A stretch of 64,000 bases of DNA from the sequence record PV159336; one strand, 5' to 3'. Positions 11,147 through 49,931 of the stretch are shown here, one piece after another. Source of the stretch: Escherichia phage W22. The notes below the pieces were generated by a model. That model was not told the DNA's origin. It made no database searches and saw nothing but the letters and a program-made list of their open reading frames with translations. The position numbers and the translations under genes are program-made. Every line of letters begins with the position of its first letter. The first letter of the stretch is position 1.

Positions 11147-12079
11147 TTAGCCTCCAAAGAAGTTTTCTATTTCTTTACGTCGCTCTTGTGGATCTAAAGC
11201 AGCCCATTGAGTCTTAGTAAAGTTGTTTCGAAGCCATTCTAGCAAAGTATAATATTCTTCGTCAACAATTTGTTTAGCATTTTTTGGGTTGTCCCAAATC
11301 ATATCCCACTTCTTATTGCCACCACGCATAAGGAATTTCTTAGCAAGATAGTATGGTGACTTAATCTTTAACAGCAAGTTAAACGGATAGTTTGTTTCAC
11401 GAACAACAAACCCTTCGTGCTTACAATGTTTAGACATTTCAACAACATCTGAAAATTTAATCATCGGATAAACTTCAGGACGTTTAAATTTTGTAATAGA
11501 TGCAATCCCATCAAGCACACCTTCGGGTAGCATGAAACTTGTCCCATCAGGATTTTGAATCCTTGCTCCAATTAAGTATGCGCCTGGTTCTTCTTCAACA
11601 ATATGTGGATCAGAAGGATCACAGATTTCAAAAAGGAAAGTTGCTTTTGCACTTTCTGTCCACTTAATGAAATATTCTATGTCATCACACTCGGAAACAA
11701 TATGGTTCTTGGCAAGAATTGCAAAATCTGACTCTAGGCTCCCTGTTGTTGATACAATAAGTTGCCCTTTGTACACACCTACAGATGCCATAAAACCGTT
11801 TACTTTACGGACAGCATCTACAAGCTGGTCTGCTGGAAGATCTGTACCATTCTCAAAACGATTAAAGATTTTAGTAAAAGGCCAAATAACAACATTGTCT
11901 TCTGAGTCAACAACCAACCCACGACAATCTAGAAGGCGTTTGTCTACGTCCCACAAGTTATCCCAGAATACATTGTTTTTGTATTTAAGTACAGCAAGAC
12001 CAGCATACTCTCCAGATTTAACTTCTTTTTTATGCACTAAACCTTTTGCAATCAGGTCATCACAATTGAACTTAGCCAC
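11147..12079 (-). CDS. putative ATP-dependent RNA ligase (nucleotidyltransferase superfamily)
   Basis: 310 aa; candidate motif I KVNG (lysine nucleotidyltransferase), EGFVVRE (IV), LKIKSP (V); flanked with 0-1 nt gaps by kinase and phosphoesterase. Confidence 0.5.
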   Translation of the reverse strand: MAKFNCDDLIAKGLVHKKEVKSGEYAGLAVLKYKNNVFWDNLWDVDKRLLDCRGLVVDSEDNVVIWPFTKIFNRFENGTDLPADQLVDAVRKVNGFMASVGVYKGQLIVSTTGSLESDFAILAKNHIVSECDDIEYFIKWTESAKATFLFEICDPSDPHIVEEEPGAYLIGARIQNPDGTSFMLPEGVLDGIASITKFKRPEVYPMIKFSDVVEMSKHCKHEGFVVRETNYPFNLLLKIKSPYYLAKKFLMRGGNKKWDMIWDNPKNAKQIVDEEYYTLLEWLRNNFTKTQWAALDPQERRKEIENFFGG

Positions 12080-12080
12080 C

Positions 12081-12632
12081 TTAATCTCCTTTGATTATCT
12101 TATGATGGTCTACAACAACAATATCACGTTTATCCATAATAGAGATGATTTCGTCAAAATGCAAGATTTTTCCGTGTGCGTCCCAACCAACATCCAACAT
12201 TTTCCCATACAAATGATCAGGGAATGATCCGTGAGAGTGCCCGTGTAGCATGATTGATCCATGCCCTTGTTTATTCCAGGCAGCCATAGGGTAATGACTT
12301 AAGACGAAGAACAGTTTCTGATATTTCACTTCGTCATAATACACAACCTCACCATATTCTGCAAGCACTTCTCGGTGTTTGCTGTAATCATGGTTCCCAA
12401 CACAGTAAGTGATATCACCTTGAAGACGTGAAGCAATTTTACGGGTATCTTCTTCAGTCCCGAAACAGAAGTCCCCAAGATGGTACATCTTTACTCCTGG
12501 TGTTGTGGCACATTTATTCCATGCCTCGATCAGTGCTTCTGTCATATGCTCCATATCTTCCCACGGGCGATATTCAGGAGCAAACTCTCGGATACGTTTG
12601 TGCATAAAATGCAAATCACTTGTAATAAACAT
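12081..12632 (-). CDS. calcineurin-like metallophosphoesterase, candidate 2',3'-phosphatase
   Basis: 183 aa; DLHF, GDF..G, GNHD, GHSH metallophosphatase signature motifs. Confidence 0.7.
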   Translation of the reverse strand: MFITSDLHFMHKRIREFAPEYRPWEDMEHMTEALIEAWNKCATTPGVKMYHLGDFCFGTEEDTRKIASRLQGDITYCVGNHDYSKHREVLAEYGEVVYYDEVKYQKLFFVLSHYPMAAWNKQGHGSIMLHGHSHGSFPDHLYGKMLDVGWDAHGKILHFDEIISIMDKRDIVVVDHHKIIKGD

Positions 12633-12994
12633 TAGTATAATCCCTCGCTGAATAGTTCACTGTCGTGACCATTTCTTTCATAGTTAATTTGTTTGGCGTT
12701 ATCTGCAATGATATAAGCATCTTTGCGACTCCACCAGTTATAATACTGATCAATAAACCCTTGATTATCAGGTAAGCAAAACAGTTTATCAATCAATCCT
12801 GCATCTTTTAAAACATTAAGTTGTGCAGATAGTACAGGATTTGCATGCCTAACACAAGGAATAATTAACTCTTCGCCATTGTTGAGAATATACTTATTCG
12901 CAGCGCAGACTATAACACGTTGAGCATAGTGATCCTCACCAATCCAAGTAAGAGGTTGGTAACAAATATCATGTTGATTAGTAGCGCACATCAA
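12632..12994 (-). CDS. hypothetical protein (120 aa)
   Basis: ORF track; overlaps phosphoesterase start by 1 nt. Confidence 0.4.
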   Translation of the reverse strand: MMCATNQHDICYQPLTWIGEDHYAQRVIVCAANKYILNNGEELIIPCVRHANPVLSAQLNVLKDAGLIDKLFCLPDNQGFIDQYYNWWSRKDAYIIADNAKQINYERNGHDSELFSEGLY

Positions 12995-13139
12995 TTTTCT
13001 CCGTACTCTTTTAATCTATCAGCGAAAAAACTGTAATCAGGAAGTAAAAGATCATTACTCGTATCGTTACAGTTTTCTTCCTCTTTATAGATAAAACGCC
13101 CTTCATCCTCTTCTTGCTCTGACCAAACTGAATAATGCA
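12990..13139 (-). CDS. small hypothetical acidic protein (49 aa)
   Basis: Manual ORF (MHYSVWSEQEEDEG...) not in track; stop overlaps the next start as ATGA. Confidence 0.3.
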
Positions 13140-13149
13140 TAATACCTAC

Positions 13150-13524
13150 TTAATAGTTAACACGTTTAATTTCAACACCATAGGATGAAATAAAATTTTC
13201 CTTAGCTAACATATATTTACCAGCAGCAGAAGGATTTGATGTATGAACATAGATAGTTTTAAGAGCATCCCATTCACCAGCGTACAACATACATTCTACG
13301 TCTAAGAACGCATGATATCCTTCTTGATCTTCCCCAAGATCATTATCGAAGTGTATCTCTGAGATATTATTGAAATTATCTTCATCTGAAACAAAAGATA
13401 ACCAATCCTCAAAAGATTTTAACCAAATGGCATCCTCATAACCATAATCTTTAGGATCTCTTAAATCGTCTAACCAAAGAATTTTAGCCACTATCAACCC
13501 CCTTCCTGTTTCTCTTCTTTCCAA
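13150..13524 (-). CDS. hypothetical protein (124 aa)
   Basis: ORF track. Confidence 0.4.
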   Translation of the reverse strand: MERRETGRGLIVAKILWLDDLRDPKDYGYEDAIWLKSFEDWLSFVSDEDNFNNISEIHFDNDLGEDQEGYHAFLDVECMLYAGEWDALKTIYVHTSNPSAAGKYMLAKENFISSYGVEIKRVNY

Positions 13525-14748: not shown

Positions 14749-15117
14749 CTAATTAACGTCAGCACTATGATTGTTGAGAGTATAGGATACTCCATCGCCC
14801 AAGTCAACATGAATCTCAACTCCTAACTGTCTTTCTAATGGTAAACGTTTTGAGAATTGATAATTACAAAGTTTACAGTCTAAGTCAAGCAACTCATGTT
14901 TGCTTAAACCTGCAACGATAACTTTGCTTCCCACTGTCCACTCAATACCTTCAAAGTTATCTCTTCTTTTCAAAATGTCAAGTAAGAAAATGATTTGTTG
15001 CCATTCCGTAGACAAGTCTTCTTCATAGAATGCAGAACAAAAAGTTTTATCATCGTAGAAAGCATACATTATGCCTCCATCTATTGTTTCACTTCTAACG
15101 TAACGTGTGACCCTCAT
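14749..15117 (-). CDS. hypothetical protein, first gene of the minus-strand early operon
   Basis: ORF track 14749..15156; ATG at 15115-15117 preceded by AGGAGGG RBS chosen as start. Confidence 0.45.
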   Translation of the reverse strand: MRVTRYVRSETIDGGIMYAFYDDKTFCSAFYEEDLSTEWQQIIFLLDILKRRDNFEGIEWTVGSKVIVAGLSKHELLDLDCKLCNYQFSKRLPLERQLGVEIHVDLGDGVSYTLNNHSADVN

Positions 15118-15248
15118 TATTCCCTCCTGTATGGCTCTGTAACGAGCTAATAGCACCTAAGATATGCAATCACCTTACCTCACAGTAAAACTCGTTACAA
15201 TCGTTTTTAGGAGGTTTAGGTTGTACTTAAAAATAATCTAAAAAGGTG

Positions 15249-15277
15249 TTGACAAACGCAAAAAAGTATGCTACCCT
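15249..15277 (+). promoter_or_regulatory. sigma70-like promoter (TTGACA, 17 nt spacer, TGn-TACCCT)
   Basis: Consensus -35 hexamer with extended -10-like element in the divergent control region. Confidence 0.35.
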
Positions 15278-15459
15278 AACCCCCGAAAAACGCCGAGCGC
15301 AGCGAGGGGGGTGTTATCTAATCTTGTGATACATGATCTAACAGACAACTGAGTAGTCTACATATAGCACTATGTTATGTCTATAATACTAACATACATG
15401 CTCTATACTAACAATAGATTATTTATTAATTTTATTATTAATTAAATAATAAATATCTA

Positions 15460-15488
15460 TTGACTTTAGATCTATCTGTATGTAGATT
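15460..15488 (+). promoter_or_regulatory. sigma70-like promoter upstream of the PRPP-synthetase-like gene
   Basis: TTGACT, 17 nt, TAGATT about 40 nt upstream of the 15528 start. Confidence 0.45.
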
Positions 15489-15527
15489 AGAGAACATAAA
15501 GTCCTAACTCAACTAAGGAGATAAAGA

Positions 15528-16421
15528 ATGAAAGTTAGTATTCTGCATGGTGTTGACTGTTATGTTACTGATGTAGACGTTAAAGTGTTTACATTCTCTG
15601 GTGGAGAACAACATGTTCAATTAGATACGAATCTATCAGGTTTCAATCATGCTACAGACAGAATCTTACTCACTTTAGAAGTAAGATCTGCTAAAGACTT
15701 GATGACTTTGGTTATGACTAAGAATGCATTGGACAATATGCTATATCATAAACCATATTGTGTTGATTTACTCATGTTGTATGTGCCGTATGCACGACAA
15801 GACAGAGTGTGTGAGCCTGGGGAAGCATTCGGAGTTAAAGCATTTGCTTCTATAATTAATTCATTAAATTTCTCACGTGTTATCGTTGCTGATCCACATA
15901 GTGATGTTACTCCAGCAGTGTTTGACAGACTCTGTGTAATACCTCAAGAAGAGATTGCTTACGAAACTTTAAAGTGGAAGTTACGTATGGAGAATTTTGC
16001 TCTTGTTAGCCCTGATGGTGGTGCTCTTAAGAAAATATTTAAATTATCTAAGAAAATGTCTTTAGATGTGTTCTGTGCAGAGAAGGTTAGAGATACCGCA
16101 ACAGGTGCTATTGTTCGTACAGACATTTCTGTACAGGATTTCAATAAGCGTAACCTGATGATCGTAGATGATATCTGTGATGGTGGTAGAACTTTTATCG
16201 AATTGGCTAAAGTGCTACGTGCTCGTAACGCAGGTAAGATTGAGCTATATGTTACACACGGTATCTTTTCTAAAGGTCTTAAAGAGTTGAGTGAGCACTT
16301 TGACTGCATTCATTCTCTTAATGTGTGGGAAGATAACATCCAAGAAGATTCCGGTGTTCTTGTTAAGAATCAGTCAGATTTGCAACAACAAATTGTATCT
16401 CCATACGTGTGGAATTTTTAA
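15528..16421 (+). CDS. prs: ribose-phosphate pyrophosphokinase (PRPP synthetase)-like; possibly ADP-ribose pyrophosphokinase of an NAD+ reconstitution pathway
   Basis: 297 aa; PRPP-binding loop LMIVDDICDGGRTF; AGGAG RBS. Confidence 0.7.
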   Translation: MKVSILHGVDCYVTDVDVKVFTFSGGEQHVQLDTNLSGFNHATDRILLTLEVRSAKDLMTLVMTKNALDNMLYHKPYCVDLLMLYVPYARQDRVCEPGEAFGVKAFASIINSLNFSRVIVADPHSDVTPAVFDRLCVIPQEEIAYETLKWKLRMENFALVSPDGGALKKIFKLSKKMSLDVFCAEKVRDTATGAIVRTDISVQDFNKRNLMIVDDICDGGRTFIELAKVLRARNAGKIELYVTHGIFSKGLKELSEHFDCIHSLNVWEDNIQEDSGVLVKNQSDLQQQIVSPYVWNF

Positions 16422-16431
16422 ATAACAAGTG

Positions 16432-16460
16432 TTGACAATAGGGAGTATGCTTAGTAAGAT
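16432..16460 (+). promoter_or_regulatory. sigma70-like promoter (TTGACA, 17 nt, TAAGAT)
   Basis: Sequence match upstream of the 16493 start. Confidence 0.45.
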
Positions 16461-16492
16461 ACTCCCACACTAACAAACAAGGAGACATAACT

Positions 16493-18226
16493 ATGAATAT
16501 TTTTGCACCTTTTGCTACTGATTGGTACAAACCTGGTCACAAGCAGATGTACAATCAAAATACAAAACTCATTTTCTCTAATTTAACTCCTCGTAATGAT
16601 AAAAACTTTGCGCACTATGCAGATCGTGAAGCACGTGGTGTGATTGTTTTAGGTATTCGTCGAGCAGTCACTGATGCTCTTGTAACTATGTGGGATAGCT
16701 TCTTTAAAATGTCTCGTAGTGCAGCAGTAAATAAATTTTATCGTATGTCTAAAAATGCATTAGGTGCTTCTGCTCCTTCTGCTGAATGTTGGGGAGAATT
16801 GCACGATTTAGGTTATCTTCCGCTGGAAGTTCGATCTCTGCCAGAAGGTGTTTTGTGTCCTATTGGTGTTCCTGTGTTTACTGTGCATAATACTTTAGAA
16901 AAATTCTTTTGGTTAACTAACTATGTGGAAACACTGTTGTCAGATGAAACTTGGAAGACAATGACTAATGCCACAGCAGCTTTTCAGTATAAGCGTATCG
17001 CTATGGCATATGCGATGGCAACGTGTGATAATATTGATCACGTTAACTTCCAGTGTCATGATTTTAGCCTACGTGGTTTAAGTAATATCGAAGATGGTTA
17101 TAAGAGTGGTATCGCTCATTTAGCATCTTTCACAGGGACAGATAATATTCTGGCTATTGAAACTGTGCATGATTATTATGGTATTGATTATGATCAGTTT
17201 GTTGCAGGTTCTATTCCGGCAACAGAACATTCAGTAGCAACGACTAACATTGGAGCTATTGTTGAAGACCTGAAGAAACATTTCCCACATCTTAAAGATG
17301 ATGTAGATGGTCTTCGTTATGTAGCAGAGAAAGAGTTTCTTCGTCGTTATATTGAAGAAATTGTTCCAGAAGGTTTTTGTTCATATGTAGCAGATTCCTA
17401 TGATTACTGGGCTGTCTTGACTCGCATTCTGGTAGAATTGAAAGAATCCATTATGTCACGAAATGGTCGTCTTGTTATTCGTCCAGATTCAGGAGATCCG
17501 GTTAAAGTTGTTGCAGGATACAATGTTGAATCTTTTGATAACTATGAAGACCTTTTAAATAATGGTATTGCGACAGCCACTGAAGTAGTTCATTTGGCTG
17601 ATGTTAATAAGTATTACAATGTTCTTCAGGATTGCAGTGTTGCTGACTGTATTGATGAAACTTATGAGATTCCTTATTGTGAAGCAGTAGGTTCTATTCA
17701 AATCCTTTGGGAAGTGTTTGGTGGTACTATCAACCGAAAAGGCTACAAGGTTCTTGATCAGCATATCGGTATGATTTATGGTGATTCTATTACTGTTGAA
17801 CGAGAACACGAGATCTTACGCCGACTGAAGAAGAAAGGTTTTGCAGCTTCCAATATCGTATTTGGTGTTGGTAGTTATACTTATCAGTTCAATACACGAG
17901 ATACTTTCGGTTTTGCTGTTAAAGCAACAGGTAGTATCATCGGTGAACACGAAATTTTGGTAAGTAAGGAGCCTAAAACTGATCCTGGTAAACGCTCTGC
18001 AAAAGGTTTTATTAAGGTTGTTAAGGATACCAATGGTAATCTGTCTCTTGTAGATAATCTTTCTTTTAAAGATATCCAGGATGAAGACAATGAGTTACAA
18101 GTTATCTTCAAGGATGGTAAGGTTATTACACCACAAGTAGAAGGCCGTGATGAAACATTCACTGATATCCGCAACCGTGTTGACGTAGAGGTTCTTCGTA
18201 CTATGGGAACCATCCAGGTTGACTAA
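16493..18226 (+). CDS. nadV: nicotinamide phosphoribosyltransferase (NadV/NAMPT)-like
   Basis: 577 aa; N-terminal FATDWYKPGHKQMY and overall length typical of the NAMPT family. Confidence 0.7.
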   Translation: MNIFAPFATDWYKPGHKQMYNQNTKLIFSNLTPRNDKNFAHYADREARGVIVLGIRRAVTDALVTMWDSFFKMSRSAAVNKFYRMSKNALGASAPSAECWGELHDLGYLPLEVRSLPEGVLCPIGVPVFTVHNTLEKFFWLTNYVETLLSDETWKTMTNATAAFQYKRIAMAYAMATCDNIDHVNFQCHDFSLRGLSNIEDGYKSGIAHLASFTGTDNILAIETVHDYYGIDYDQFVAGSIPATEHSVATTNIGAIVEDLKKHFPHLKDDVDGLRYVAEKEFLRRYIEEIVPEGFCSYVADSYDYWAVLTRILVELKESIMSRNGRLVIRPDSGDPVKVVAGYNVESFDNYEDLLNNGIATATEVVHLADVNKYYNVLQDCSVADCIDETYEIPYCEAVGSIQILWEVFGGTINRKGYKVLDQHIGMIYGDSITVEREHEILRRLKKKGFAASNIVFGVGSYTYQFNTRDTFGFAVKATGSIIGEHEILVSKEPKTDPGKRSAKGFIKVVKDTNGNLSLVDNLSFKDIQDEDNELQVIFKDGKVITPQVEGRDETFTDIRNRVDVEVLRTMGTIQVD

Positions 18227-18297
18227 ATAAAAACTTCGTGATAAGATTAAGGTAAGGAGAGCCTACAACTGCCCTGGATGGGCTTCACGAAGGATTT

Positions 18298-18519
18298 ATG
18301 AAACAACATAATTTTTATTTTCGTTGCCGAGCCTGTAACAGACACTTGACTAATCACTCCCGTAGAGACAGGAATGGTAATATTCAAGAGTCGGATCTAT
18401 GCTCGATTTGTACAAGTTTGGCATTCGACGACAGTCCCGAAAGGGTTTATCAACATCAAAGTGTAACTGATCTTCTTCTAAATTACACAACACCAGAGGA
18501 GGAATTAGATTTCACATAA
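18298..18519 (+). CDS. small zinc-ribbon protein (73 aa)
   Basis: CRACNRH...CSIC pattern. Confidence 0.4.
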   Translation: MKQHNFYFRCRACNRHLTNHSRRDRNGNIQESDLCSICTSLAFDDSPERVYQHQSVTDLLLNYTTPEEELDFT

Positions 18520-18532
18520 TTAAGGAAACAGT

Positions 18533-18643
18533 ATGTCTACAGAAATTATTTTTGGCTTATCTGTTTTTATTGCTATTGTATCTTTTGTATGCGGTTATAC
18601 ACTAGGTTACAGATCAAGAAAAAATATTGTAAAAACTAGTTGA
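18533..18643 (+). CDS. small hydrophobic protein (36 aa, one predicted TM helix)
   Basis: Manual ORF MSTEIIFGLSVFIAIVSFVCGYTLGYRSRKNIVKTS after AAGGA RBS. Confidence 0.3.
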   Translation: MSTEIIFGLSVFIAIVSFVCGYTLGYRSRKNIVKTS

Positions 18644-18669
18644 CAACATAGCTAGTTATTTGCTAAGAT
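18640..18669 (+). promoter_or_regulatory. sigma70-like promoter (TTGACA, 18 nt, TGc-TAAGAT)
   Basis: Sequence match upstream of the 18700 start. Confidence 0.4.
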
Positions 18670-18699
18670 AAGCCCAAGTTAAACAAAAAGGAGAAAACT

Positions 18700-18966
18700 A
18701 TGACAGAACGTACTTATGGTAAAGAACTGATTGAGAAGCACGTATTGATTGATAATAAAGGTGGAGCAATCTTTATTTTTGAACCTGAATCAGTTCTTAC
18801 TGAAAACGAAAATGGTAGCGTTAGCCTTAAAACAGAAAGTTTGGTAATTGACTTCCTTGCTCTTCTGGATGAAATGGGGCTTCCTCACGAAGAAGAAGCA
18901 GCTATTGCTTTGATTACAGTTCTTCTGGAGAAACGCGAAGCTGGTGAAATGACCCAGTATGCTTAA
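18700..18966 (+). CDS. hypothetical acidic protein (88 aa)
   Basis: ORF track; GGAG RBS. Confidence 0.45.
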   Translation: MTERTYGKELIEKHVLIDNKGGAIFIFEPESVLTENENGSVSLKTESLVIDFLALLDEMGLPHEEEAAIALITVLLEKREAGEMTQYA

Positions 18967-18973
18967 TATTCAA

Positions 18974-19049
18974 GGTTCCATAGCTCACTGACGAGAGCGC
19001 ACACCTCATAAGTGTCGAGGGCAGGGATTGTAACCCTGGGGAACCACCA
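18974..19049 (+). tRNA. tRNA, anticodon CAT (Met or Ile2), atypical T-loop
   Basis: Manual fold: acceptor GGTTCC/GGAACC, anticodon loop CTCATAA, CCA encoded. Confidence 0.45.
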
Positions 19050-19080
19050 TTTAAAAGGAGGTGCTATGCATCTCCTATAT

Positions 19081-19166
19081 GCAAGTGTGGTGGAATTGGT
19101 GATACACATTGTGCTTAAAACGCAACGCTTAAATGCTTGAGGGTTCGAATCCCTCCACTTGCACCA
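19081..19166 (+). tRNA. tRNA-Leu (anticodon TAA)
   Basis: Manual fold: acceptor GCAAGTG/CACTTGC, loop CTTAAAA, long variable arm, T-loop GGTTCGAATCC, CCA. Confidence 0.6.
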
Positions 19167-19168
19167 AC

Positions 19169-19273
19169 GCCTAGTAGGGTATTTGGTAATTCCGAGGCCA
19201 TCAAAGCCTGAAAAATATGTTAGACCGCTTTGTCTAACTAAATACGAAATATGGTTCGATTCCATAACTAGGC
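19169..19273 (+). ncRNA. atypical tRNA-like element (about 105 nt; possible UCA anticodon; no CCA)
   Basis: Perfect 7-bp acceptor GCCTAGT/ACTAGGC, T-arm TATGG-TTCGATT-CCATA, anticodon-like hairpin with loop CATCAAA, 7-bp extra arm GTTAGAC/GTCTAAC. Confidence 0.3.
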
Positions 19274-19306
19274 TTCAATTTAAATAATAATTTTAGTAAA
19301 AATATC

Positions 19307-19335
19307 TTGACATTCACTTAGTTTTTTGTTATAGT
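19307..19335 (+). promoter_or_regulatory. sigma70-like promoter (TTGACA, 17 nt, TGt-TATAGT)
   Basis: Near-consensus promoter inside the tRNA cluster. Confidence 0.5.
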
Positions 19336-19345
19336 TACTGTGAAA

Positions 19346-19427
19346 ACGGGGTGTATCTCACCTGACTTCTAATCAGGCGTTAACCGAGTAATTGGAGTAT
19401 GCAGGTTCGAATCCTGTCACCCCGACC
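19346..19427 (+). ncRNA. atypical tRNA-like element (anticodon-like loop CTTCTAA, no recognisable D-arm)
   Basis: Perfect acceptor CGGGGTG/CACCCCG plus ACCA, T-arm GCAGG-TTCGAAT-CCTGT, hairpin CCTGA-CTTCTAA-TCAGG only 7 nt after the acceptor. Confidence 0.35.
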
Positions 19428-19446
19428 AAAAAGTTTTTAAAAACTA

Positions 19447-19475
19447 CTTGACAAGCAAGATAGTTTTATGTTAGA
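19447..19475 (+). promoter_or_regulatory. sigma70-like promoter (TTGACA, 17 nt, TGt-TAGATT)
   Basis: Sequence match inside the tRNA cluster. Confidence 0.45.
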
Positions 19476-19491
19476 TTTAAAGTATGATAAC

Positions 19492-19581
19492 GGGAAGGTA
19501 GGGCGCAGCGGTGCGCAACCAGGTTTGAACCCTGGCCCATTGTAGCGATACGGTGATGGTTCGACTCCATTATCTTCCTCC
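19492..19581 (+). tRNA. tRNA-Ser (anticodon TGA)
   Basis: Manual fold: acceptor GGAAGGT/ATCTTCC, stem CCAGG/CCTGG with loop TTTGAAC, long variable arm, CCA. Confidence 0.55.
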
Positions 19582-19600
19582 AAATTCAACTAGGAGCTTT

Positions 19601-19753
19601 ATGAATTATAAAACTATTGGACAGGTTGTTACCGGAGTTAAGATTGTAGATAATAAAGTTGTTTATGAGTATTCTAATCTTCAACAATCTGAAGATGGTA
19701 AGAATATTCGTATGGTAAAAGCAGAACAAAAAGATTCCGGTTGTTTTGAATAA
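19601..19753 (+). CDS. small hypothetical protein (50 aa)
   Basis: ORF track 19553..19753 overlaps tRNA-Ser; internal ATG after AGGAG RBS chosen. Confidence 0.35.
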   Translation: MNYKTIGQVVTGVKIVDNKVVYEYSNLQQSEDGKNIRMVKAEQKDSGCFE

Positions 19754-19761
19754 TTAAGAAC

Positions 19762-19847
19762 GGTAGATTGGTGAAATGGTAGCCACAACAGTTTGCTAAA
19801 CTGTCGTCGGAAACGGCGTGTAGGTTCAAGTCCTACATCTACCGCCA
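19762..19847 (+). tRNA. tRNA-Ser (anticodon GCT)
   Basis: Manual fold: acceptor GGTAGAT/ATCTACC, stem ACAGT/ACTGT loop TTGCTAA, long variable arm, discriminator G, CCA. Confidence 0.6.
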
Positions 19848-19974
19848 AGTTATCTTTAATGTAGCTTGTAATCTTACTTTAATAGAGTAAACTTTCGGCA
19901 GATGGCCCCCCACCATCTTACCGATATCCCATAGTCAAGTGCCGCAAACACTGGCTATTTTAAAGATAATTTAT

Positions 19975-20050
19975 ACATCGTTAGCTTAGTTGGTAGAGCA
20001 AGGGGCTTTTAACTCCAAGGTCGAAGGTTCGAATCCTTCACGATGTACCA
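19975..20050 (+). tRNA. tRNA-Lys (anticodon TTT)
   Basis: Manual fold: acceptor ACATCGT/ACGATGT, D-arm GCTTAGTTGGTAGAGC, loop CTTTTAA, T-loop GGTTCGAATCC, CCA. Confidence 0.6.
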
Positions 20051-20055
20051 AACAC

Positions 20056-20142
20056 GTAGGTATCGCATAGCGGCAATTGCTGGAGACTGTAAATCTCTTG
20101 CCCTTCGGGGCTTCGTTGGTTCGAGTCCAACTACCTGCACCA
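20056..20142 (+). tRNA. tRNA-Tyr (anticodon GTA)
   Basis: Manual fold: acceptor GTAGGTA/TACCTGC, stem GGAGA/TCTCT loop CTGTAAA, long variable arm, CCA. Confidence 0.6.
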
Positions 20143-20149
20143 AATTAAA

Positions 20150-20234
20150 GATGGATTGGCCTAGTGGTTGGGCGACGGACTGTTAATCCGTGAACGAAAG
20201 TTCTAGCAAGGTTCAAATCCTTGATCCATCGCCA
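20150..20234 (+). tRNA. tRNA with Asn anticodon GTT on a class-II (long variable arm) scaffold
   Basis: Manual fold: acceptor GATGGAT/ATCCATC, stem ACGGA/TCCGT loop CTGTTAA, 15-nt variable arm GAAC-GAAA-GTTC, discriminator G, CCA. Confidence 0.45.
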
Positions 20235-20241
20235 GAATTAT

Positions 20242-20318
20242 GGACTTGTAGAGTTAAGGTAAACCTCCAGTCGCCAAGAGGCTTCTGGAATTGCAGGTAT
20301 CGAATCCTGCCGAGTCCA
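20242..20318 (+). ncRNA. atypical tRNA-like element (anticodon unresolved, 8-nt T-loop, no CCA)
   Basis: 7-bp acceptor GGACTTG/CGAGTCC and T-arm GCAGG-TATCGAAT-CCTGC; no clean anticodon arm found. Confidence 0.3.
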
Positions 20319-20324
20319 AGTATT

Positions 20325-20399
20325 GCTCCTATCGTATAACGGCTATTACGGTTGCCTTGTAAGCAACTTATCAGGGTTCGAGTCCTTGTGGGAGCACCA
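20325..20399 (+). tRNA. tRNA-Thr (anticodon TGT)
   Basis: Manual fold: acceptor GCTCCTA/TGGGAGC, stem GTTGC/GCAAC loop CTTGTAA, CCA. Confidence 0.6.
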
Positions 20400-20416
20400 A
20401 TTTTAACTCTAAAGGA

Positions 20417-20746
20417 GTGTATGTGACAGAAAAAGAGTTAGAGAAATATTTTAATATCAATGTTTTCGATGGTTTTGATGATATTGAAGATGTTGAAAGA
20501 TATTATGAAGTAGAGTTAGATAAGGATAACATTGTAATTCTTTCTGCCACTTATGATTGTGCATATTATGAAGGTGAATCTCACGTTTATTTTTATGATA
20601 TGAAAACATCTTTGTTTTATGAAGTACACGCATATCATTGTTCTTGTTATGGCTTAGAAGGTCAGTGGGAACCTGAAGAAATAGGTGATTTGGACTTTAC
20701 TATTGCATATCTAAACAGACGTGGTGCATCTACTATTTTAAAATAA
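20417..20746 (+). CDS. hypothetical Cys/His-containing protein inside the tRNA cluster
   Basis: ORF track (109 aa); GTG start region after AAGGAG RBS; motif HAYHCSCYG. Confidence 0.45.
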   Translation: MYVTEKELEKYFNINVFDGFDDIEDVERYYEVELDKDNIVILSATYDCAYYEGESHVYFYDMKTSLFYEVHAYHCSCYGLEGQWEPEEIGDLDFTIAYLNRRGASTILK

Positions 20747-20760
20747 ATATCAAAAGCCTC

Positions 20761-20789
20761 TTGACAAAGGGGCTAATAATATGTTAGAG
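20761..20789 (+). promoter_or_regulatory. sigma70-like promoter (TTGACA, 17 nt, TGt-TAGAGT)
   Basis: Sequence match upstream of tRNA-Gly. Confidence 0.45.
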
Positions 20790-20801
20790 TAATATTGTTA
20801 A

Positions 20802-20876
20802 GCGGGTATAGTGTTAATGGTAGCATATGAGGTTTCCACCCTCCAGGTGCAGGTTCAAGTCCTGTTACTCGCTCCA
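20802..20876 (+). tRNA. tRNA-Gly (anticodon TCC)
   Basis: Manual fold: acceptor GCGGGTA/TACTCGC, loop TTTCCAC, T-loop GGTTCAAGTCC, CCA. Confidence 0.55.
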
Positions 20877-20975
20877 AGATTATTTAAATGGAATCGCTAG
20901 AGAAAATTTCTCTTTTCGCTCATGGTTTTCTCCTTCAAACTCTAGCGGTTCTTTTTAAGTGATTTTTAGTTTTAT

Positions 20976-21050
20976 TGGAGATTAGCCTAGTGGGAAGGCA
21001 ACGGCCTTTGAAGTCGTGATGACTAGGTTCGATTCCTAGATCTCCAGCCA
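20976..21050 (+). tRNA. tRNA-Gln (anticodon TTG)
   Basis: Manual fold: acceptor TGGAGAT/ATCTCCA, stem ACGGC/GTCGT loop CTTTGAA, T-loop GGTTCGATTCC, CCA. Confidence 0.55.
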
Positions 21051-21057
21051 GTATTTA

Positions 21058-21133
21058 CAGTGCGTAGCGCAGTTGGTAGCGTGGGAGCTTTGGATGCTTC
21101 GGGTCGCAGGTTCGAGTCCTGCCGCACTGACCA
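21058..21133 (+). tRNA. tRNA-Pro (anticodon TGG)
   Basis: Manual fold: acceptor CAGTGCG/CGCACTG, D-arm GCGCAGTTGGTAGCG, loop TTTGGAT, T-loop GGTTCGAGTCC, CCA. Confidence 0.55.
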
Positions 21134-21138
21134 AATTT

Positions 21139-21213
21139 GCAGAGATAGCTGAGACGGATTAGTGCTACCCTGAAAAGGTAGAAAGGATGGATCGTTACCA
21201 TCTCTCTGCACCA
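21139..21213 (+). tRNA. tRNA-Phe (anticodon GAA), atypical T-loop
   Basis: Manual fold: acceptor GCAGAGA/TCTCTGC, stem CTACC/GGTAG loop CTGAAAA, CCA. Confidence 0.5.
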
Positions 21214-21289
21214 AATAACACCATCCAAGGAGTAGACTTGGTTAACTGTCAATAGCACATTGAGGCTTCTTACAGTGGTGTATTTTTAT

Positions 21290-21374
21290 GGCTAAGTGGT
21301 GGAATGGTATACACGATACGCTTAGAACGTATTGCCCCAAGGGATTGTGAGTTCGAGTCTCACCTTAGCTACCA
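21290..21374 (+). tRNA. tRNA-Leu (anticodon TAG)
   Basis: Manual fold: acceptor GGCTAAG/CTTAGCT, stem ATACG/CGTAT loop CTTAGAA, long variable arm, CCA. Confidence 0.6.
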
Positions 21375-21462
21375 TATCTAAGAGATATCATAGGGTTTGC
21401 AACGGATATCTACCGTCCTGTTAAGGATACCACGCCAAGACGGGTTATAAAGGGTTAGCCAT

Positions 21463-21538
21463 TGATAGTGTGAAGCTGGCGTTTCGAGTGCTTTCATAAG
21501 GCATTGCGAGAAGAGTTCGATTCTCTTACTATCAACCA
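21463..21538 (+). tRNA. tRNA, anticodon CAT (Met, fMet or Ile2)
   Basis: Manual fold, 76 nt: acceptor TGATAGT/ACTATCA, loop TTCATAA, T-arm AAGAG-TTCGATT-CTCTT, CCA. Confidence 0.55.
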
Positions 21539-21553
21539 AATTACTACAGATTG

Positions 21554-21632
21554 CGCGGGATAGAGGAGTCTGGTCGTCCTCGCCAGTTTCATATGCTGGA
21601 GATCGTAGGTTCAAATCCTACTCCCGCCTCCA
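21554..21632 (+). tRNA. tRNA, anticodon CAT (Met, fMet or Ile2)
   Basis: Manual fold: D-stem GAGG/CCTC, stem CCAGT/GCTGG loop TTCATAT, T-loop GGTTCAAATCC, CCA; one acceptor mismatch. Confidence 0.45.
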
Positions 21633-21697
21633 ATAAATACCTCCCTTCTGGTGTAATGATTAAGTTACATTGACACTTCAAGGAACTTATAGCCGGG

Positions 21698-21773
21698 TAG
21701 ATTTAAAAGAGTATGGTACTCAATATGGCTCCAAACCATAGATCAAGGGGTTCGATTCCTCACCTTGCTGCCA
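21698..21773 (+). ncRNA. tRNA-Trp-like element (anticodon-like loop CTCCAAA) with unpaired acceptor
   Basis: Perfect stem TATGG/CCATA with loop CTCCAAA, T-arm with TTCGATT loop, 3' CCA; no complementary 5' acceptor strand found. Confidence 0.3.
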
Positions 21774-21778
21774 ATTAT

Positions 21779-21854
21779 TGTGGTATCGTACAGATGGTTA
21801 GTACACTCGACCGATAATCGAGAAACAACGGTTCGACTCCGTTTACCACGACCA
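21779..21854 (+). tRNA. tRNA-Ile (anticodon GAT)
   Basis: Manual fold: acceptor TGTGGTA/TACCACG, D-arm GTACAGATGGTTAGTAC, stem CTCGA/TCGAG loop CCGATAA, T-loop GGTTCGACTCC, CCA. Confidence 0.55.
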
Positions 21855-49689: not shown

Positions 49690-49931
49690 GAAAATTTTTA
49701 ATAGGTATGTTCTGTACATATCCTGATAATAAAGTCAGTTCTACTAAAGTTTGGAATGCTATTGGTATGATTGTTATGTCCAGTATGTTTATTTATTTGG
49801 GAATTGATAAAGAAATTCCTGAATGGATGGGCTGGGCTTTTGTTTTTATGATCACACCATCTAGACTAATGAAGAATTTAATAGATTTACGTTGGGGCAG
49901 ATCACCTGCCCCTGATAAGGAGGATAACTAA
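49686..49931 (+). CDS. small membrane protein (two predicted TM helices), holin-like candidate
   Basis: 81 aa; hydrophobic segments AIGMIVMSSMFIYLGI and WMGWAFVFMI. Confidence 0.35.
   Translation: MRKFLIGMFCTYPDNKVSSTKVWNAIGMIVMSSMFIYLGIDKEIPEWMGWAFVFMITPSRLMKNLIDLRWGRSPAPDKEDN

What the first reader, a model, noticed from the sequence alone, without database searches (positions are those of the whole stretch)
15528..18226. PRPP-synthetase-like plus NAMPT-like gene pair: candidate NAD+ reconstitution counter-defence
Adjacent genes encode a PRPP-synthetase-family enzyme (PRPP loop VDDICDGGRTF) and a nicotinamide phosphoribosyltransferase-family enzyme, each with its own TTGACA promoter. This pairing is the signature of the phage NAD+ reconstitution pathway 1 (an ADP-ribose pyrophosphokinase plus a nicotinamide ADPR transferase) that counters NAD+-depleting immunity such as Thoeris, DSR and SIR2-type systems. 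It is also compatible with a classical PRPP plus NadV salvage route; sequence alone does not discriminate.
Basis: partly seen in the sequence, partly recalled or inferred. Interest (0 to 1): 0.65.

Follow-up and report, generated by a model that had tools for sequence, protein, structure and literature searches.

The report
Known phage NAD+ rebuilding operon (NARP1)
These two adjacent phage genes are a standard copy of NARP1, a published two-enzyme pathway that rebuilds NAD+ from the fragments left by bacterial NAD+-destroying immune systems; this phage lineage is already listed in the discoverers' own tables, so the finding is correct but not new.

Summary
ORFs at 15528-16421 (297 aa, PRPP-synthetase family) and 16493-18226 (577 aa, NAMPT/NadV family) lie 71 bp apart on the + strand of a phi92-like coliphage (Justusliebigvirus; 99.1% nt identity to phage SD2). 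(1) In my tree the first protein falls in the phage Adps clade with five experimentally supported Adps; the split from bona fide Prs has 99.5-100% bootstrap support, it shows the Adps state at 24 of 26 discriminating columns, and it fails every NCBIfam Prs equivalog cut-off. (2) The second protein has the published Namat-specific clamp motif (GSYTYQFNTRD) and matches the crystallised SPbetaL1 Namat at 20 of its 20 NAD+-contact positions (16 identical, 4 conservative); it scores 399 bits against that protein and 174 against human NAMPT. (3) Osterman et al. 2024 already list phi92 and BASEL phages Bas60-62 as carrying Adps with an Adps-associated Namat; those proteins differ from the window's by 0-2 and 3-4 residues. 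No Macro-domain or RyR-domain accessory gene is present, so this is the plain two-gene form. No experiment on this lineage was found. Already known; low interest.

The parts
15460..15488 (+). Promoter-like site upstream of gene 1: TTGACT-17 nt-TAGATT
   Evidence: 9 of 12 consensus matches. TTGACT is invariant in PHB05, Bas62 and phi92; the relatives have TAGAGT as the second hexamer. Function inferred, not shown.
15515..15520 (+). Ribosome-binding site AAGGAG of gene 1
   Evidence: Read directly from the sequence, 7 nt before the ATG. phi92 annotates AGGAG at the same place.
15528..16421 (+). adps: ADP-ribose pyrophosphokinase (Prs-family), 297 aa
   Evidence: Domain hits. 36% identity and 137 bits to Bas63 Adps, against 28% and 72 bits to E. 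coli Prs. Inside the Adps clade; split from Prs supported at 99.5-100% bootstrap. phi92 orthologue listed in Supplementary Table 1 of Osterman et al..
15891..15911 (+). DPHSDVT, the Adps-type version of the Prs DLHAxQIQGFF segment
   Evidence: Clade-discriminating columns P123, S125 and V127 show the Adps state.
16083..16085 (+). Codon of catalytic Lys186 of Adps
   Evidence: Aligns with E. coli Prs K194. This is the equivalent of B. subtilis Prs K197 and SPbetaL1 Adps K162, whose mutation abolishes NARP1 activity.
16164..16196 (+). Phosphoribosyl-binding loop VDDICDGGRTF of Adps
   Evidence: Translation verified. DDICDGGRTF is shared with the Bas63, FelixO1, PVP-SE1 and RP12 Adps; Prs has DDMIDTxGT.
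16432..16460 (+). Promoter-like site upstream of gene 2: TTGACA-17 nt-TAAGAT
   Evidence: 10 of 12 matches. One of three TTGACW-N16-18-TAAGAT sites in the window, against 0.15 expected. Identical in Bas62 and PHB05.
16441..16466 (+). Inverted repeat GGGAGTAT-N10-ATACTCCC in the 71-nt gap, overlapping the -10 hexamer
   Evidence: As RNA the 71-nt gap folds at -15.3 kcal/mol, z = -2.97. The stem is identical in Bas62 and PHB05. No U-tract follows, so it is not an intrinsic terminator. Role unknown.
16479..16484 (+). Ribosome-binding site AAGGAG of gene 2
   Evidence: Read directly from the sequence.
16493..18226 (+). namat: nicotinamide ADP-ribose transferase (NAMPT family), 577 aa
   Evidence: Domain hits. 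399 bits to the SPbetaL1 Namat crystal-structure sequence 9w5x, against 174 bits to human NAMPT. 42-44% identity to five validated Namat proteins. Bas60-62 and phi92 orthologues are labelled 'Adps-associated' in Supplementary Table 2.
16586..16609 (+). Selectivity-clamp loop (SCL) TPRNDKNF of Namat
   Evidence: K37 aligns with SPbetaL1 R40 and with the Lys of Bas63 and FADO. The next residue is Asn rather than Trp/Tyr, followed by Phe39, and the loop is 5 aa longer than in SPbetaL1.
17219..17236 (+). ATEHSV motif containing His246 of Namat
   Evidence: Identical in all six aligned Namat proteins. That His246 is the catalytic, phosphorylatable histidine (human NAMPT His247) is my assignment from prior knowledge; the Namat paper says only that the catalytic histidine is conserved.
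17480..17482 (+). Codon of Arg330 of Namat
   Evidence: Aligns with SPbetaL1 R306 (human R311). R306G and R306A abolish NAD+ reconstitution.
17870..17902 (+). Selectivity-clamp helix (SCH) motif GSYTYQFNTRD of Namat
   Evidence: Fits the published Namat consensus GS-X-phi-X-phi-X-phi-TRD, with aromatic residues at positions 3 (Y462) and 7 (F466). Xanthomonas Nampt has GGALLQKVDRD and 9ke8 has GAQTYQRNTRD.

Best explanation
The locus is a plain two-gene NARP1 operon (NAD+ reconstitution pathway 1) of a virulent phi92-like coliphage. When a host defence system with a SIR2, TIR or SEFIR NADase cleaves NAD+ into ADP-ribose and nicotinamide, the first enzyme (Adps, a diverged PRPP-synthetase homologue) transfers pyrophosphate from ATP onto the terminal ribose of ADP-ribose to make ADPR-pyrophosphate. 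The second enzyme (Namat, a NAMPT homologue with an adenine-binding clamp) then replaces that pyrophosphate with nicotinamide, regenerating NAD+ directly so the phage can keep replicating. Shown here: gene integrity, family and clade membership, conservation of catalytic and clamp residues, purifying selection, and near-identity to genes the discoverers catalogued as NARP1. Inferred by homology (36-44% identity to the tested enzymes): the substrates, the products and the counter-defence phenotype. The genes open the rightward transcription block at the divergent switch. They are probably expressed early from host-type promoters, each gene having its own candidate site; this expression model is inferred.
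For: ORFs and families.

The window is a Justusliebigvirus: 99.1% nt identity to SD2, 97.8% to phi92 and 97.4-97.9% to BASEL phages PaulScherrer, EmilieFrey and JohannJBalmer. The NARP1 paper found the operon in four BASEL phages and characterised it in Bas63 and SPbetaL1. Its Supplementary Tables list phi92, JohannJBalmer, PaulScherrer and EmilieFrey, with the Adps homologue marked 'Namat within 10 genes: Yes' and the Namat marked 'Adps-associated'. The window proteins differ from those of PHB05, Bas62 and phi92 by 0-2 of 297 and 3-4 of 577 residues, with dN/dS 0.00-0.03.

Adps. NJ tree of 26 sequences over 271 columns with 200 bootstraps: the window protein lies inside the clade holding the Bas63, SPbetaL1, FADO, DyoEdafos and ICP1 enzymes, and the split between bona fide Prs and the rest is recovered in 99.5-100% of replicates. 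Adps state at 24 of 26 columns invariant in Prs but rare in Adps. 137 bits to Bas63 Adps against 72 bits to E. coli Prs and at most 59 bits to any solved Prs. Far below all Prs equivalog cut-offs, for example 98 against 297. Catalytic Lys conserved.

Namat. SCH motif GSYTYQFNTRD matches the Namat-specific consensus. All 20 NAD+-contact positions of the SPbetaL1 crystal structure are conserved: 16 identical and 4 conservative replacements (R40K, A362S, F392Y, Y396F). 399 bits to SPbetaL1 Namat against 174 bits to human NAMPT; 9w5x confirmed as SPbetaL1.
Against: No biochemical or genetic test of this lineage's enzymes was found in the searchable library. Identity to the assayed enzymes is only 36-44%. 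The SCL loop departs from the described pattern: after Lys37 comes Asn38 rather than the aromatic residue that stacks on adenine in Bas63 and FADO, and the loop is 5 residues longer. Namat enzymes keep PRPP-dependent NMN synthesis in vitro, so some classical salvage activity is not excluded. The discriminating-column analysis rests on only 7 Prs and 17 Adps sequences. The Adps sequences taken from Supplementary Table 1 were chosen by me from the first page of the table, not sampled systematically.
Confidence: 0.9

Rival explanations
1. Classical salvage: the first enzyme is a true PRPP synthetase and the second a true NadV/Nampt. Together they make NMN from ribose-5-phosphate and nicotinamide, host NadR or PncC finishes NAD+ synthesis, and the phage gains a general metabolic boost rather than a response to immune NAD+ cleavage.
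For: Database names and Pfam/NCBIfam hits read that way. TIGR01251 is just passed (118 bits against a cut-off of 113). The pair sits next to a nucleotide-metabolism block with NrdA, thymidylate synthase and thymidine kinase. Namat retains about half of human Nampt's PRPP-to-NMN activity in vitro.
Against: The protein lies in the Adps clade, not the Prs clade, and carries 24 of 26 Adps-type columns. SPbetaL1 Adps gave no measurable product in the PRPP-synthetase assay (Fig. 2D legend: ribose-5-phosphate plus ATP). Bas63 still overcame defence in a pncC nadR double-deletion host. The second protein carries the adenine clamp that Nampt lacks.
Confidence: 0.05
2. NARP2-type pathway: a PRPP-preferring phage Nampt working with a phage NMN adenylyltransferase encoded elsewhere in the genome.
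For: The NAMPT-family gene is common to both pathways. I did not scan the whole genome for an Nmnat.
Against: The discoverers label the phi92-group protein 'Adps-associated', place NARP2 Nampt in a separate clade, and report no phage carrying both pathways. An Adps gene lies directly upstream. No Nmnat-like annotation appears in the 30 kb around the pair in PHB05 or in the first 50 kb of phi92. The clamp motif is Namat-type.
Confidence: 0.01
3. Extended NARP1: either NARP1-AP, with a Macro-domain ADPR-1''-phosphate phosphatase, or RyDEP-coupled NARP1, which would also counter aRES or cyclic-ADPR Thoeris signalling.
For: 15% of NARP1 operons carry a Macro-domain gene. A RyR-domain gene sits inside the DyoEdafos operon.
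Against: Only 71 bp separate the two genes and there is no ORF between them. None of the eight flanking ORFs (six upstream, two downstream) hits a Macro or RyR Pfam family even at E up to 1.
Confidence: 0.02

Closest known systems
NARP1 of the phi92-like BASEL phages Bas60-62 and phage phi92, as catalogued in Osterman et al. 2024, Supplementary Tables 1-2
   Same: Same lineage, same gene order, same 71-bp gap. Proteins differ by 0-2 of 297 and 3-4 of 577 residues.
   Different: Essentially nothing. The window is another isolate of the same genus; its closest record is phage SD2 at 99.1% nt identity.
Bas63 (JohannRWettstein, Felixounavirus) genes 79-80, the operon in which NARP1 was discovered and deletion-tested
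   Same: Adps followed by Namat on one strand with a short gap. DDICDGGRTF loop, KxR(D/N)xxTG catalytic loop, Lys-type SCL, GSYTYQ.. SCH motif, and a large insertion in Namat relative to the Bacillus-phage enzymes.
   Different: Only 36% (Adps) and 39-44% (Namat) identity, from a different phage family. Bas63 has Trp after the SCL lysine where the window has Asn, and the Bas63 insertion is longer.
SPbetaL1 Adps and Namat, the biochemically and structurally characterised pair (PDB 9w5w/9w5x)
   Same: All 20 NAD+-contact positions are conserved: 16 identical and 4 conservative (R40K, A362S, F392Y, Y396F). Catalytic Lys of Adps is conserved.
   Different: The window Namat is 86 aa longer, with insertions at aa 253-272 and about 343-387, a longer SCL and a C-terminal tail. 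Its SCL has Lys instead of the stacking Arg40. The Adps loop is DDICDGGRT where SPbetaL1 has DDLSSFGGT.
Bona fide ribose-phosphate diphosphokinase (Prs) and nicotinamide phosphoribosyltransferase (Nampt/NadV)
   Same: Same folds and catalytic cores. 16 of the 69 Prs-invariant columns are shared by both groups, including RxD, H131, K194, R196 and DD220-221. The NAM and ribose-phosphate pocket of NAMPT is conserved.
   Different: Prs motifs FGYARQDR, DLHAxQIQGFF and DKRR are replaced by xPYARQDR, DPHSDVT and KVRDTATG. NAMPT lacks the aromatic SCH residues. Scores fall far below the equivalog cut-offs.

Membership tests
NARP1 - Adps | Prs-family fold and domains (PF14572 / PF00156) | tested here: met
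   PF00156 at 31.3 bits, PF14572 at 28.6 bits, PHROG 619 at E 4e-91.
NARP1 - Adps | Falls in the phage-dominated Adps clade, separate from cellular Prs | tested here: met
   NJ tree with 200 bootstraps: Prs versus rest recovered in 99.5-100% of replicates, with the window protein among five validated Adps. 24 of 26 discriminating columns in the Adps state. The phi92 orthologue is in the authors' Adps table.
NARP1 - Adps | Namat homologue within 10 genes (true of 97% of the clade) | tested here: met
   The Namat gene starts 71 bp downstream on the same strand.
NARP1 - Adps | Catalytic lysine equivalent to SPbetaL1 K162 / B. subtilis Prs K197 | tested here: met
   K186 aligns with E. coli Prs K194, and the column is invariant in all 26 sequences.
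NARP1 - Adps | Converts ADP-ribose plus ATP to ADPR-PP and does not make PRPP from ribose-5-phosphate | not testable with these tools
   Needs an enzyme assay. Shown only for SPbetaL1, and by reconstitution for DyoEdafos and P. foliorum.
NARP1 - Namat | Conserved NAMPT-like catalytic core (NAM and ribose-phosphate pocket, catalytic His, essential Arg) | tested here: met
   D10, Y12, F191, S192, R194, D217, A243, H246 (ATEHSV), R330, D332, G430, D431 and R469 are all present.
NARP1 - Namat | [quoted passage not shown] | tested here: met
   GSYTYQFNTRD at aa 460-470 has Y462 and F466, with phi = T, Q, N exactly as the consensus describes. Xanthomonas Nampt and 9ke8 lack the aromatics.
NARP1 - Namat | SCL loop with Arg/Lys/Tyr at its third position and an adenine-stacking residue (the Arg itself, or the following residue) | tested here: inconclusive
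   K37 occupies the third position, as in Bas63 and FADO. The next residue is N38, not aromatic, followed by F39, and the loop is 5 aa longer. Whether F39 stacks on adenine needs a ligand-bound model.
NARP1 - Namat | Prefers ADPR-PP over PRPP and yields NAD+ directly | not testable with these tools
   Needs a competition assay like the one done for SPbetaL1.
NARP1 (pathway) | Lets the phage overcome NAD+-depleting defences (SIR2-HerA, DSR1/2, type I Thoeris, SEFIR) | not testable with these tools
   Shown for Bas63, FADO and SPbetaL1. No test of a phi92-like phage was found.
NARP1-AP (with Adpp phosphatase) | Macro-domain ADPR-1''-phosphate phosphatase gene in or next to the operon | tested here: not met
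   No Macro-family Pfam hit in the eight flanking ORFs at E up to 1, and no ORF in the 71-bp gap. Remote homologues below HMMER sensitivity are not excluded.
RyDEP-coupled NARP1 | RyR-domain glycosidase gene inside the operon | tested here: not met
   No RyR-domain hit among the flanking ORFs. Compare DyoEdafos gp78, which sits between adps and namat.
NARP2 (Nampt plus Nmnat) | PRPP-preferring Nampt of the separate clade, not associated with Adps, plus an Nmnat gene in the genome | tested here: not met
   Adps is adjacent, the clamp motif is Namat-type, and the authors label the orthologue 'Adps-associated'. Whole-genome absence of Nmnat was not scanned here.
Bona fide Prs (ribose-phosphate diphosphokinase) | Reaches an NCBIfam Prs equivalog or subfamily cut-off and carries the Prs-invariant motifs | tested here: not met
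   Best equivalog-level scores are 98 against 297 and 97.5 against 296; only the broad TIGR01251 is passed, at 118 against 113. The DLHAxQIQGFF and DKRR motifs are absent.

The most novel reading that the evidence does not exclude
The phi92-lineage Namat differs from the crystallised enzyme in three ways: a longer selectivity-clamp loop without an aromatic residue directly after the lysine (K37-N38-F39), and two lineage-specific insertions of 20 aa and about 45 aa. Each gene also has its own candidate promoter, the second overlapped by a conserved hairpin. Together these could mean altered donor selectivity (for example a genuinely dual ADPR-PP/PRPP enzyme, or use of a modified ADPR) or uncoupled regulation of the two steps. 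That would make this a functional variant of NARP1 rather than a plain copy.
Probability: 0.06. Interest if true: 0.35.

Novelty: already known. Interest (0 to 1): 0.12.

Why it matters
NARP1 lets phages defeat a whole class of bacterial immune systems that work by destroying NAD+, estimated to be present in over 15% of bacterial genomes. Recognising it helps predict which therapeutic or model phages will escape SIR2, TIR and SEFIR-based defences. A plain two-gene NARP1 without the Adpp phosphatase should still be blocked by aRES, which produces ADPR-1''-phosphate, so the phi92 group is predicted to be aRES-sensitive. Beyond that practical annotation (most GenBank records still call these genes Prs and NadV), the locus adds no new biology: the pathway, its mechanism, its structure and this lineage's membership have all been published.

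Tried and rejected
1. I guessed BASEL accession numbers to find Bas63. MZ501085 was the wrong phage; MZ501086 was correct.

2. I expected Bas63 to be a close relative of the window. It is a Felixounavirus with only 36-44% protein identity, so I did not claim near-identity to the tested operon. The near-identical catalogued relatives are Bas60-62 and phi92.

3. I tried to identify PDB 9ke8, the closest structure without aromatic clamp residues, as a phage NARP2 Nampt. The best phage match was only about 65%, so it stays unidentified. No KVP40 NARP2 sequence was obtained, so the Namat/Nampt contrast rests on the Xanthomonas and human entries and on the published consensus.

4. A position-by-position comparison of the upstream region with PHB05 suggested 99 differences in 371 positions. 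Alignment showed this was a 1-bp indel artefact and the region is 96% conserved.

5. An Rfam scan of 15000-19000 found nothing.

6. The search for Macro or RyR accessory genes was negative.

7. The literature search for experiments on phi92-like NARP1 was negative.

8. I did not run the large protein-database searches or structure prediction. Literature tables, motif tests and a small tree already settled the question, and predicted folds would not separate Namat from Nampt (reported C-alpha RMSD about 1 A).

9. A terminator reading of the intergenic hairpin was rejected because no U-tract follows it.
Full report
**What is there.** The window holds two intact + strand ORFs exactly at the reported coordinates: 15528-16421 (297 aa) and 16493-18226 (577 aa), separated by 71 bp.
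- The first ORF hits the phosphoribosyltransferase and PRPP-synthetase-associated Pfam domains, PHROG 619 and TIGR01251.
- The second ORF hits the NAPRTase family, PHROG 448 and NCBIfam NF006629.
- The quoted loop VDDICDGGRTF is at aa 213-223.
- Both genes have an AAGGAG ribosome-binding site.

**Which genome.** The locus is 99.1% identical at the nucleotide level to Escherichia phage SD2 and 97.2-98.9% identical to 54 further records. These include phi92 and the BASEL phages PaulScherrer, EmilieFrey and JohannJBalmer, all Justusliebigvirus (Stephanstirmvirinae). The window is collinear with phage PHB05. A leftward block of replication and nucleotide-metabolism genes ends near 15156. The gene pair opens the rightward block, followed by small ORFs, 16 tRNA genes, and then the lysis, terminase, portal and capsid genes. 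The GC skew changes sign at the same point.

**What is known.** Osterman et al. (bioRxiv 10.1101/2024.02.11.579819) noticed a Prs-like plus Nampt-like operon in four BASEL phages.
- They deleted it in Bas63 and showed that it counters SIR2-HerA.
- It still works in a pncC nadR double-deletion host.
- Infection produces ADPR-pyrophosphate.
- The SPbetaL1 homologues convert ADP-ribose plus ATP to ADPR-PP (Adps), and ADPR-PP plus nicotinamide to NAD+ (Namat).

Bas63 turned out to be a Felixounavirus. The window proteins share only 36% (Adps) and 39% (Namat) BLASTP identity with it, the latter rising to 44% in the multiple alignment. However, the paper's Supplementary Table 1 ("Adps homologs") lists the phi92, EmilieFrey, JohannJBalmer and PaulScherrer proteins with "Namat within 10 genes: Yes". 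Supplementary Table 2 labels their Namat "Adps-associated". The window proteins differ from those of PHB05, Bas62 and phi92 by 0, 1 and 2 residues of 297, and by 3-4 of 577, with dN/dS 0.00-0.03. The discoverers had therefore already catalogued this exact lineage.

**Independent test of the first enzyme.** I aligned four groups of sequences:
- the window protein;
- five experimentally supported Adps (Bas63, SPbetaL1, FADO, DyoEdafos, ICP1 NrsA);
- twelve further entries from Supplementary Table 1;
- E. coli Prs plus six diverse annotated Prs and one Prs-like protein from plasmid or chromid records.

In a neighbour-joining tree (271 columns, 200 bootstraps) the window protein sits among the phage Adps. 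The split between the seven Prs and everything else appears in 100% of replicates, and in 99.5% when the Pontibacter Prs-like protein is counted with the Prs.

Of the 69 columns invariant in Prs, 16 are shared by both groups. These form the catalytic core and include K194, which aligns with window K186. A further 26 are essentially absent from Adps, and the window shows the Adps state at 24 of them. Examples are xPYARQDR for FGYARQDR, DPHSDVT for DLHAxQIQGFF, and KVRDTATG for DKRRP.

| Comparison for the window Adps-like protein | Bit score |
|---|---|
| Bas63 Adps | 137 |
| E. coli Prs | 72 |
| Best solved Prs structure | 59 |

All Prs equivalog cut-offs are missed by a factor of three or more.

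**Independent test of the second enzyme.** The crystal-structure paper on SPbetaL1 Namat (PMC12774641) defines a selectivity clamp. It consists of a helix motif, GS-X-phi-X-phi-X-phi-TRD, whose aromatic positions 3 and 7 stack on the adenine of ADPR-PP, and a variable loop (SCL) that contributes a further stacking residue. Double clamp mutants lose NAD+ synthesis and counter-defence but keep PRPP-dependent NMN synthesis.

The window has GSYTYQFNTRD (aa 460-470), a match at every defined position of the consensus. Xanthomonas Nampt reads GGALLQKVDRD, and the unidentified structure 9ke8 reads GAQTYQRNTRD. All 20 SPbetaL1 residues reported to contact NAD+ are conserved: 16 are identical and 4 are conservative replacements (R40K, A362S, F392Y, Y396F). 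The ATEHSV segment around His246 is identical in all six aligned Namat proteins, and the essential arginine is present as R330. The protein scores 399 bits against the SPbetaL1 Namat sequence (9w5x, identity confirmed) and about 174 bits against human NAMPT.

The one imperfect feature is the SCL. Lys37 occupies the expected position, as in Bas63 and FADO, but it is followed by Asn38 and then Phe39, rather than directly by Trp or Tyr. The loop is also five residues longer than in SPbetaL1. I score that feature as inconclusive.

**Which form of NARP1.** Two extensions have been described:
- NARP1-AP, which adds a Macro-domain ADPR-1''-phosphate phosphatase and counters aRES;
- an inserted RyR-domain glycosidase that feeds cyclic-ADPR signals into the pathway.

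The 71-bp gap holds no ORF, and none of the eight flanking ORFs hits a Macro or RyR family even at E up to 1. This is the plain two-gene form. From the published biochemistry it should not rescue the phage from aRES (inference).

**Expression signals.** Sigma-70-like sites in general are no more common here than chance. The specific pattern TTGACW-N16-18-TAAGAT, however, occurs three times in 64 kb, against 0.15 expected and with 0 of 100 shuffles reaching three. All three sites are on the + strand, just upstream of the starts at 16493, 18298 and 18700.

Gene 1 is preceded instead by TTGACT-17-TAGATT. The TTGACT hexamer is invariant in four phages.

A perfect 8-bp inverted repeat (16441-16466) overlaps the -10 element of the second site. 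As RNA the 71-nt gap folds at -15.3 kcal/mol (z = -2.97), the stem is identical in relatives, and no U-tract follows. Its role is unknown. Rfam finds nothing in 15000-19000.

**Verdict.** The remaining doubt is that no enzyme assay or deletion has been reported for this lineage in the library I could search. The classical Prs plus NadV reading (about 0.05) conflicts with clade placement, the clamp motif and the published Bas63 and SPbetaL1 experiments. NARP2 and the extended NARP1 forms fail their defining features. The pathway, mechanism, structure and lineage membership are all published, so the finding is already known and of low interest. Its practical value is to correct the routine [quoted passage not shown] annotation.

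Noticed in passing
window 13150-13524 (-), with neighbours at about 11151-12636 (-): A 124-aa ORF carries a cREC_REC 'cyclic-phosphate processing receiver' domain (E 3e-14). It lies a few genes from ORFs that relatives annotate as RNA ligase and phosphoesterase, which suggests a phage RNA-repair module.
   Followed up: partly
window 16432-16460, 18219-18247, 18640-18669 (+): The pattern TTGACW-N16-18-TAAGAT occurs three times in 64 kb, against 0.15 expected. Each copy is just upstream of a + strand gene start, which suggests a lineage-specific promoter class with an unusual TAAGAT -10 element.
   Followed up: partly
window 16441-16466 (+): A perfect 8-bp inverted repeat (GGGAGTAT-N10-ATACTCCC) lies between adps and namat and overlaps the -10 hexamer. 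The stem is conserved in Bas62 and PHB05 and no U-tract follows. It could be an operator or an RNA-stability element.
   Followed up: partly
window 17249-17308 and 17519-17653 (+): The Namat protein has two insertions relative to the crystallised SPbetaL1 enzyme: aa 253-272 and about aa 343-387. Bas63 has even longer ones at the same places. Their structure and role are unknown.
   Followed up: no
window 18974-21854 (+): An array of 16 tRNA genes starts about 750 bp downstream of namat. ARAGORN calls a tRNA-Met (CAT) at 18974-19049 that has no counterpart in the Bas62 annotation of the homologous stretch.
   Followed up: partly
L006 (phi92) 49736-49886, equivalent to window about 17085-17235: The phi92 record annotates a 151-nt 'hypothetical tRNA' inside the namat coding sequence. 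ARAGORN finds no tRNA there in the window, and Rfam finds nothing, so the annotation looks spurious.
   Followed up: yes
window 15249-15310 (+): A conserved TTGACA-17-TACCCT site is followed by a GC-rich inverted repeat (CCCCCG...CGAGGGGGG) in the divergent intergenic region. The scan flags the repeat as terminator-like on the - strand, where it would sit upstream of, not after, the leftward genes. Unexplained.
   Followed up: no
window 18298-18519 (+): A 73-aa ORF immediately downstream of namat has its own TAAGAT-type promoter and two CxxC pairs (weak RecR zinc-finger hit, E 0.004). Function unknown.
   Followed up: no
L006 (phi92) 12318-13130 (-), outside this window: phi92 is annotated with a Sir2-like 'NAD-dependent deacetylase' gene (gp038). 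It is curious that a phage encoding an NAD+-rebuilding pathway also carries an NAD+-consuming-type domain.
   Followed up: no
literature (PMC11724313), not located in the window: AntiDefenseFinder reports the anti-TIR gene Atd1 in Justusliebigvirus phages, so this lineage may combine NARP1 with a second counter-defence against NAD+/TIR-based immunity. I did not look for it in the window.
   Followed up: no
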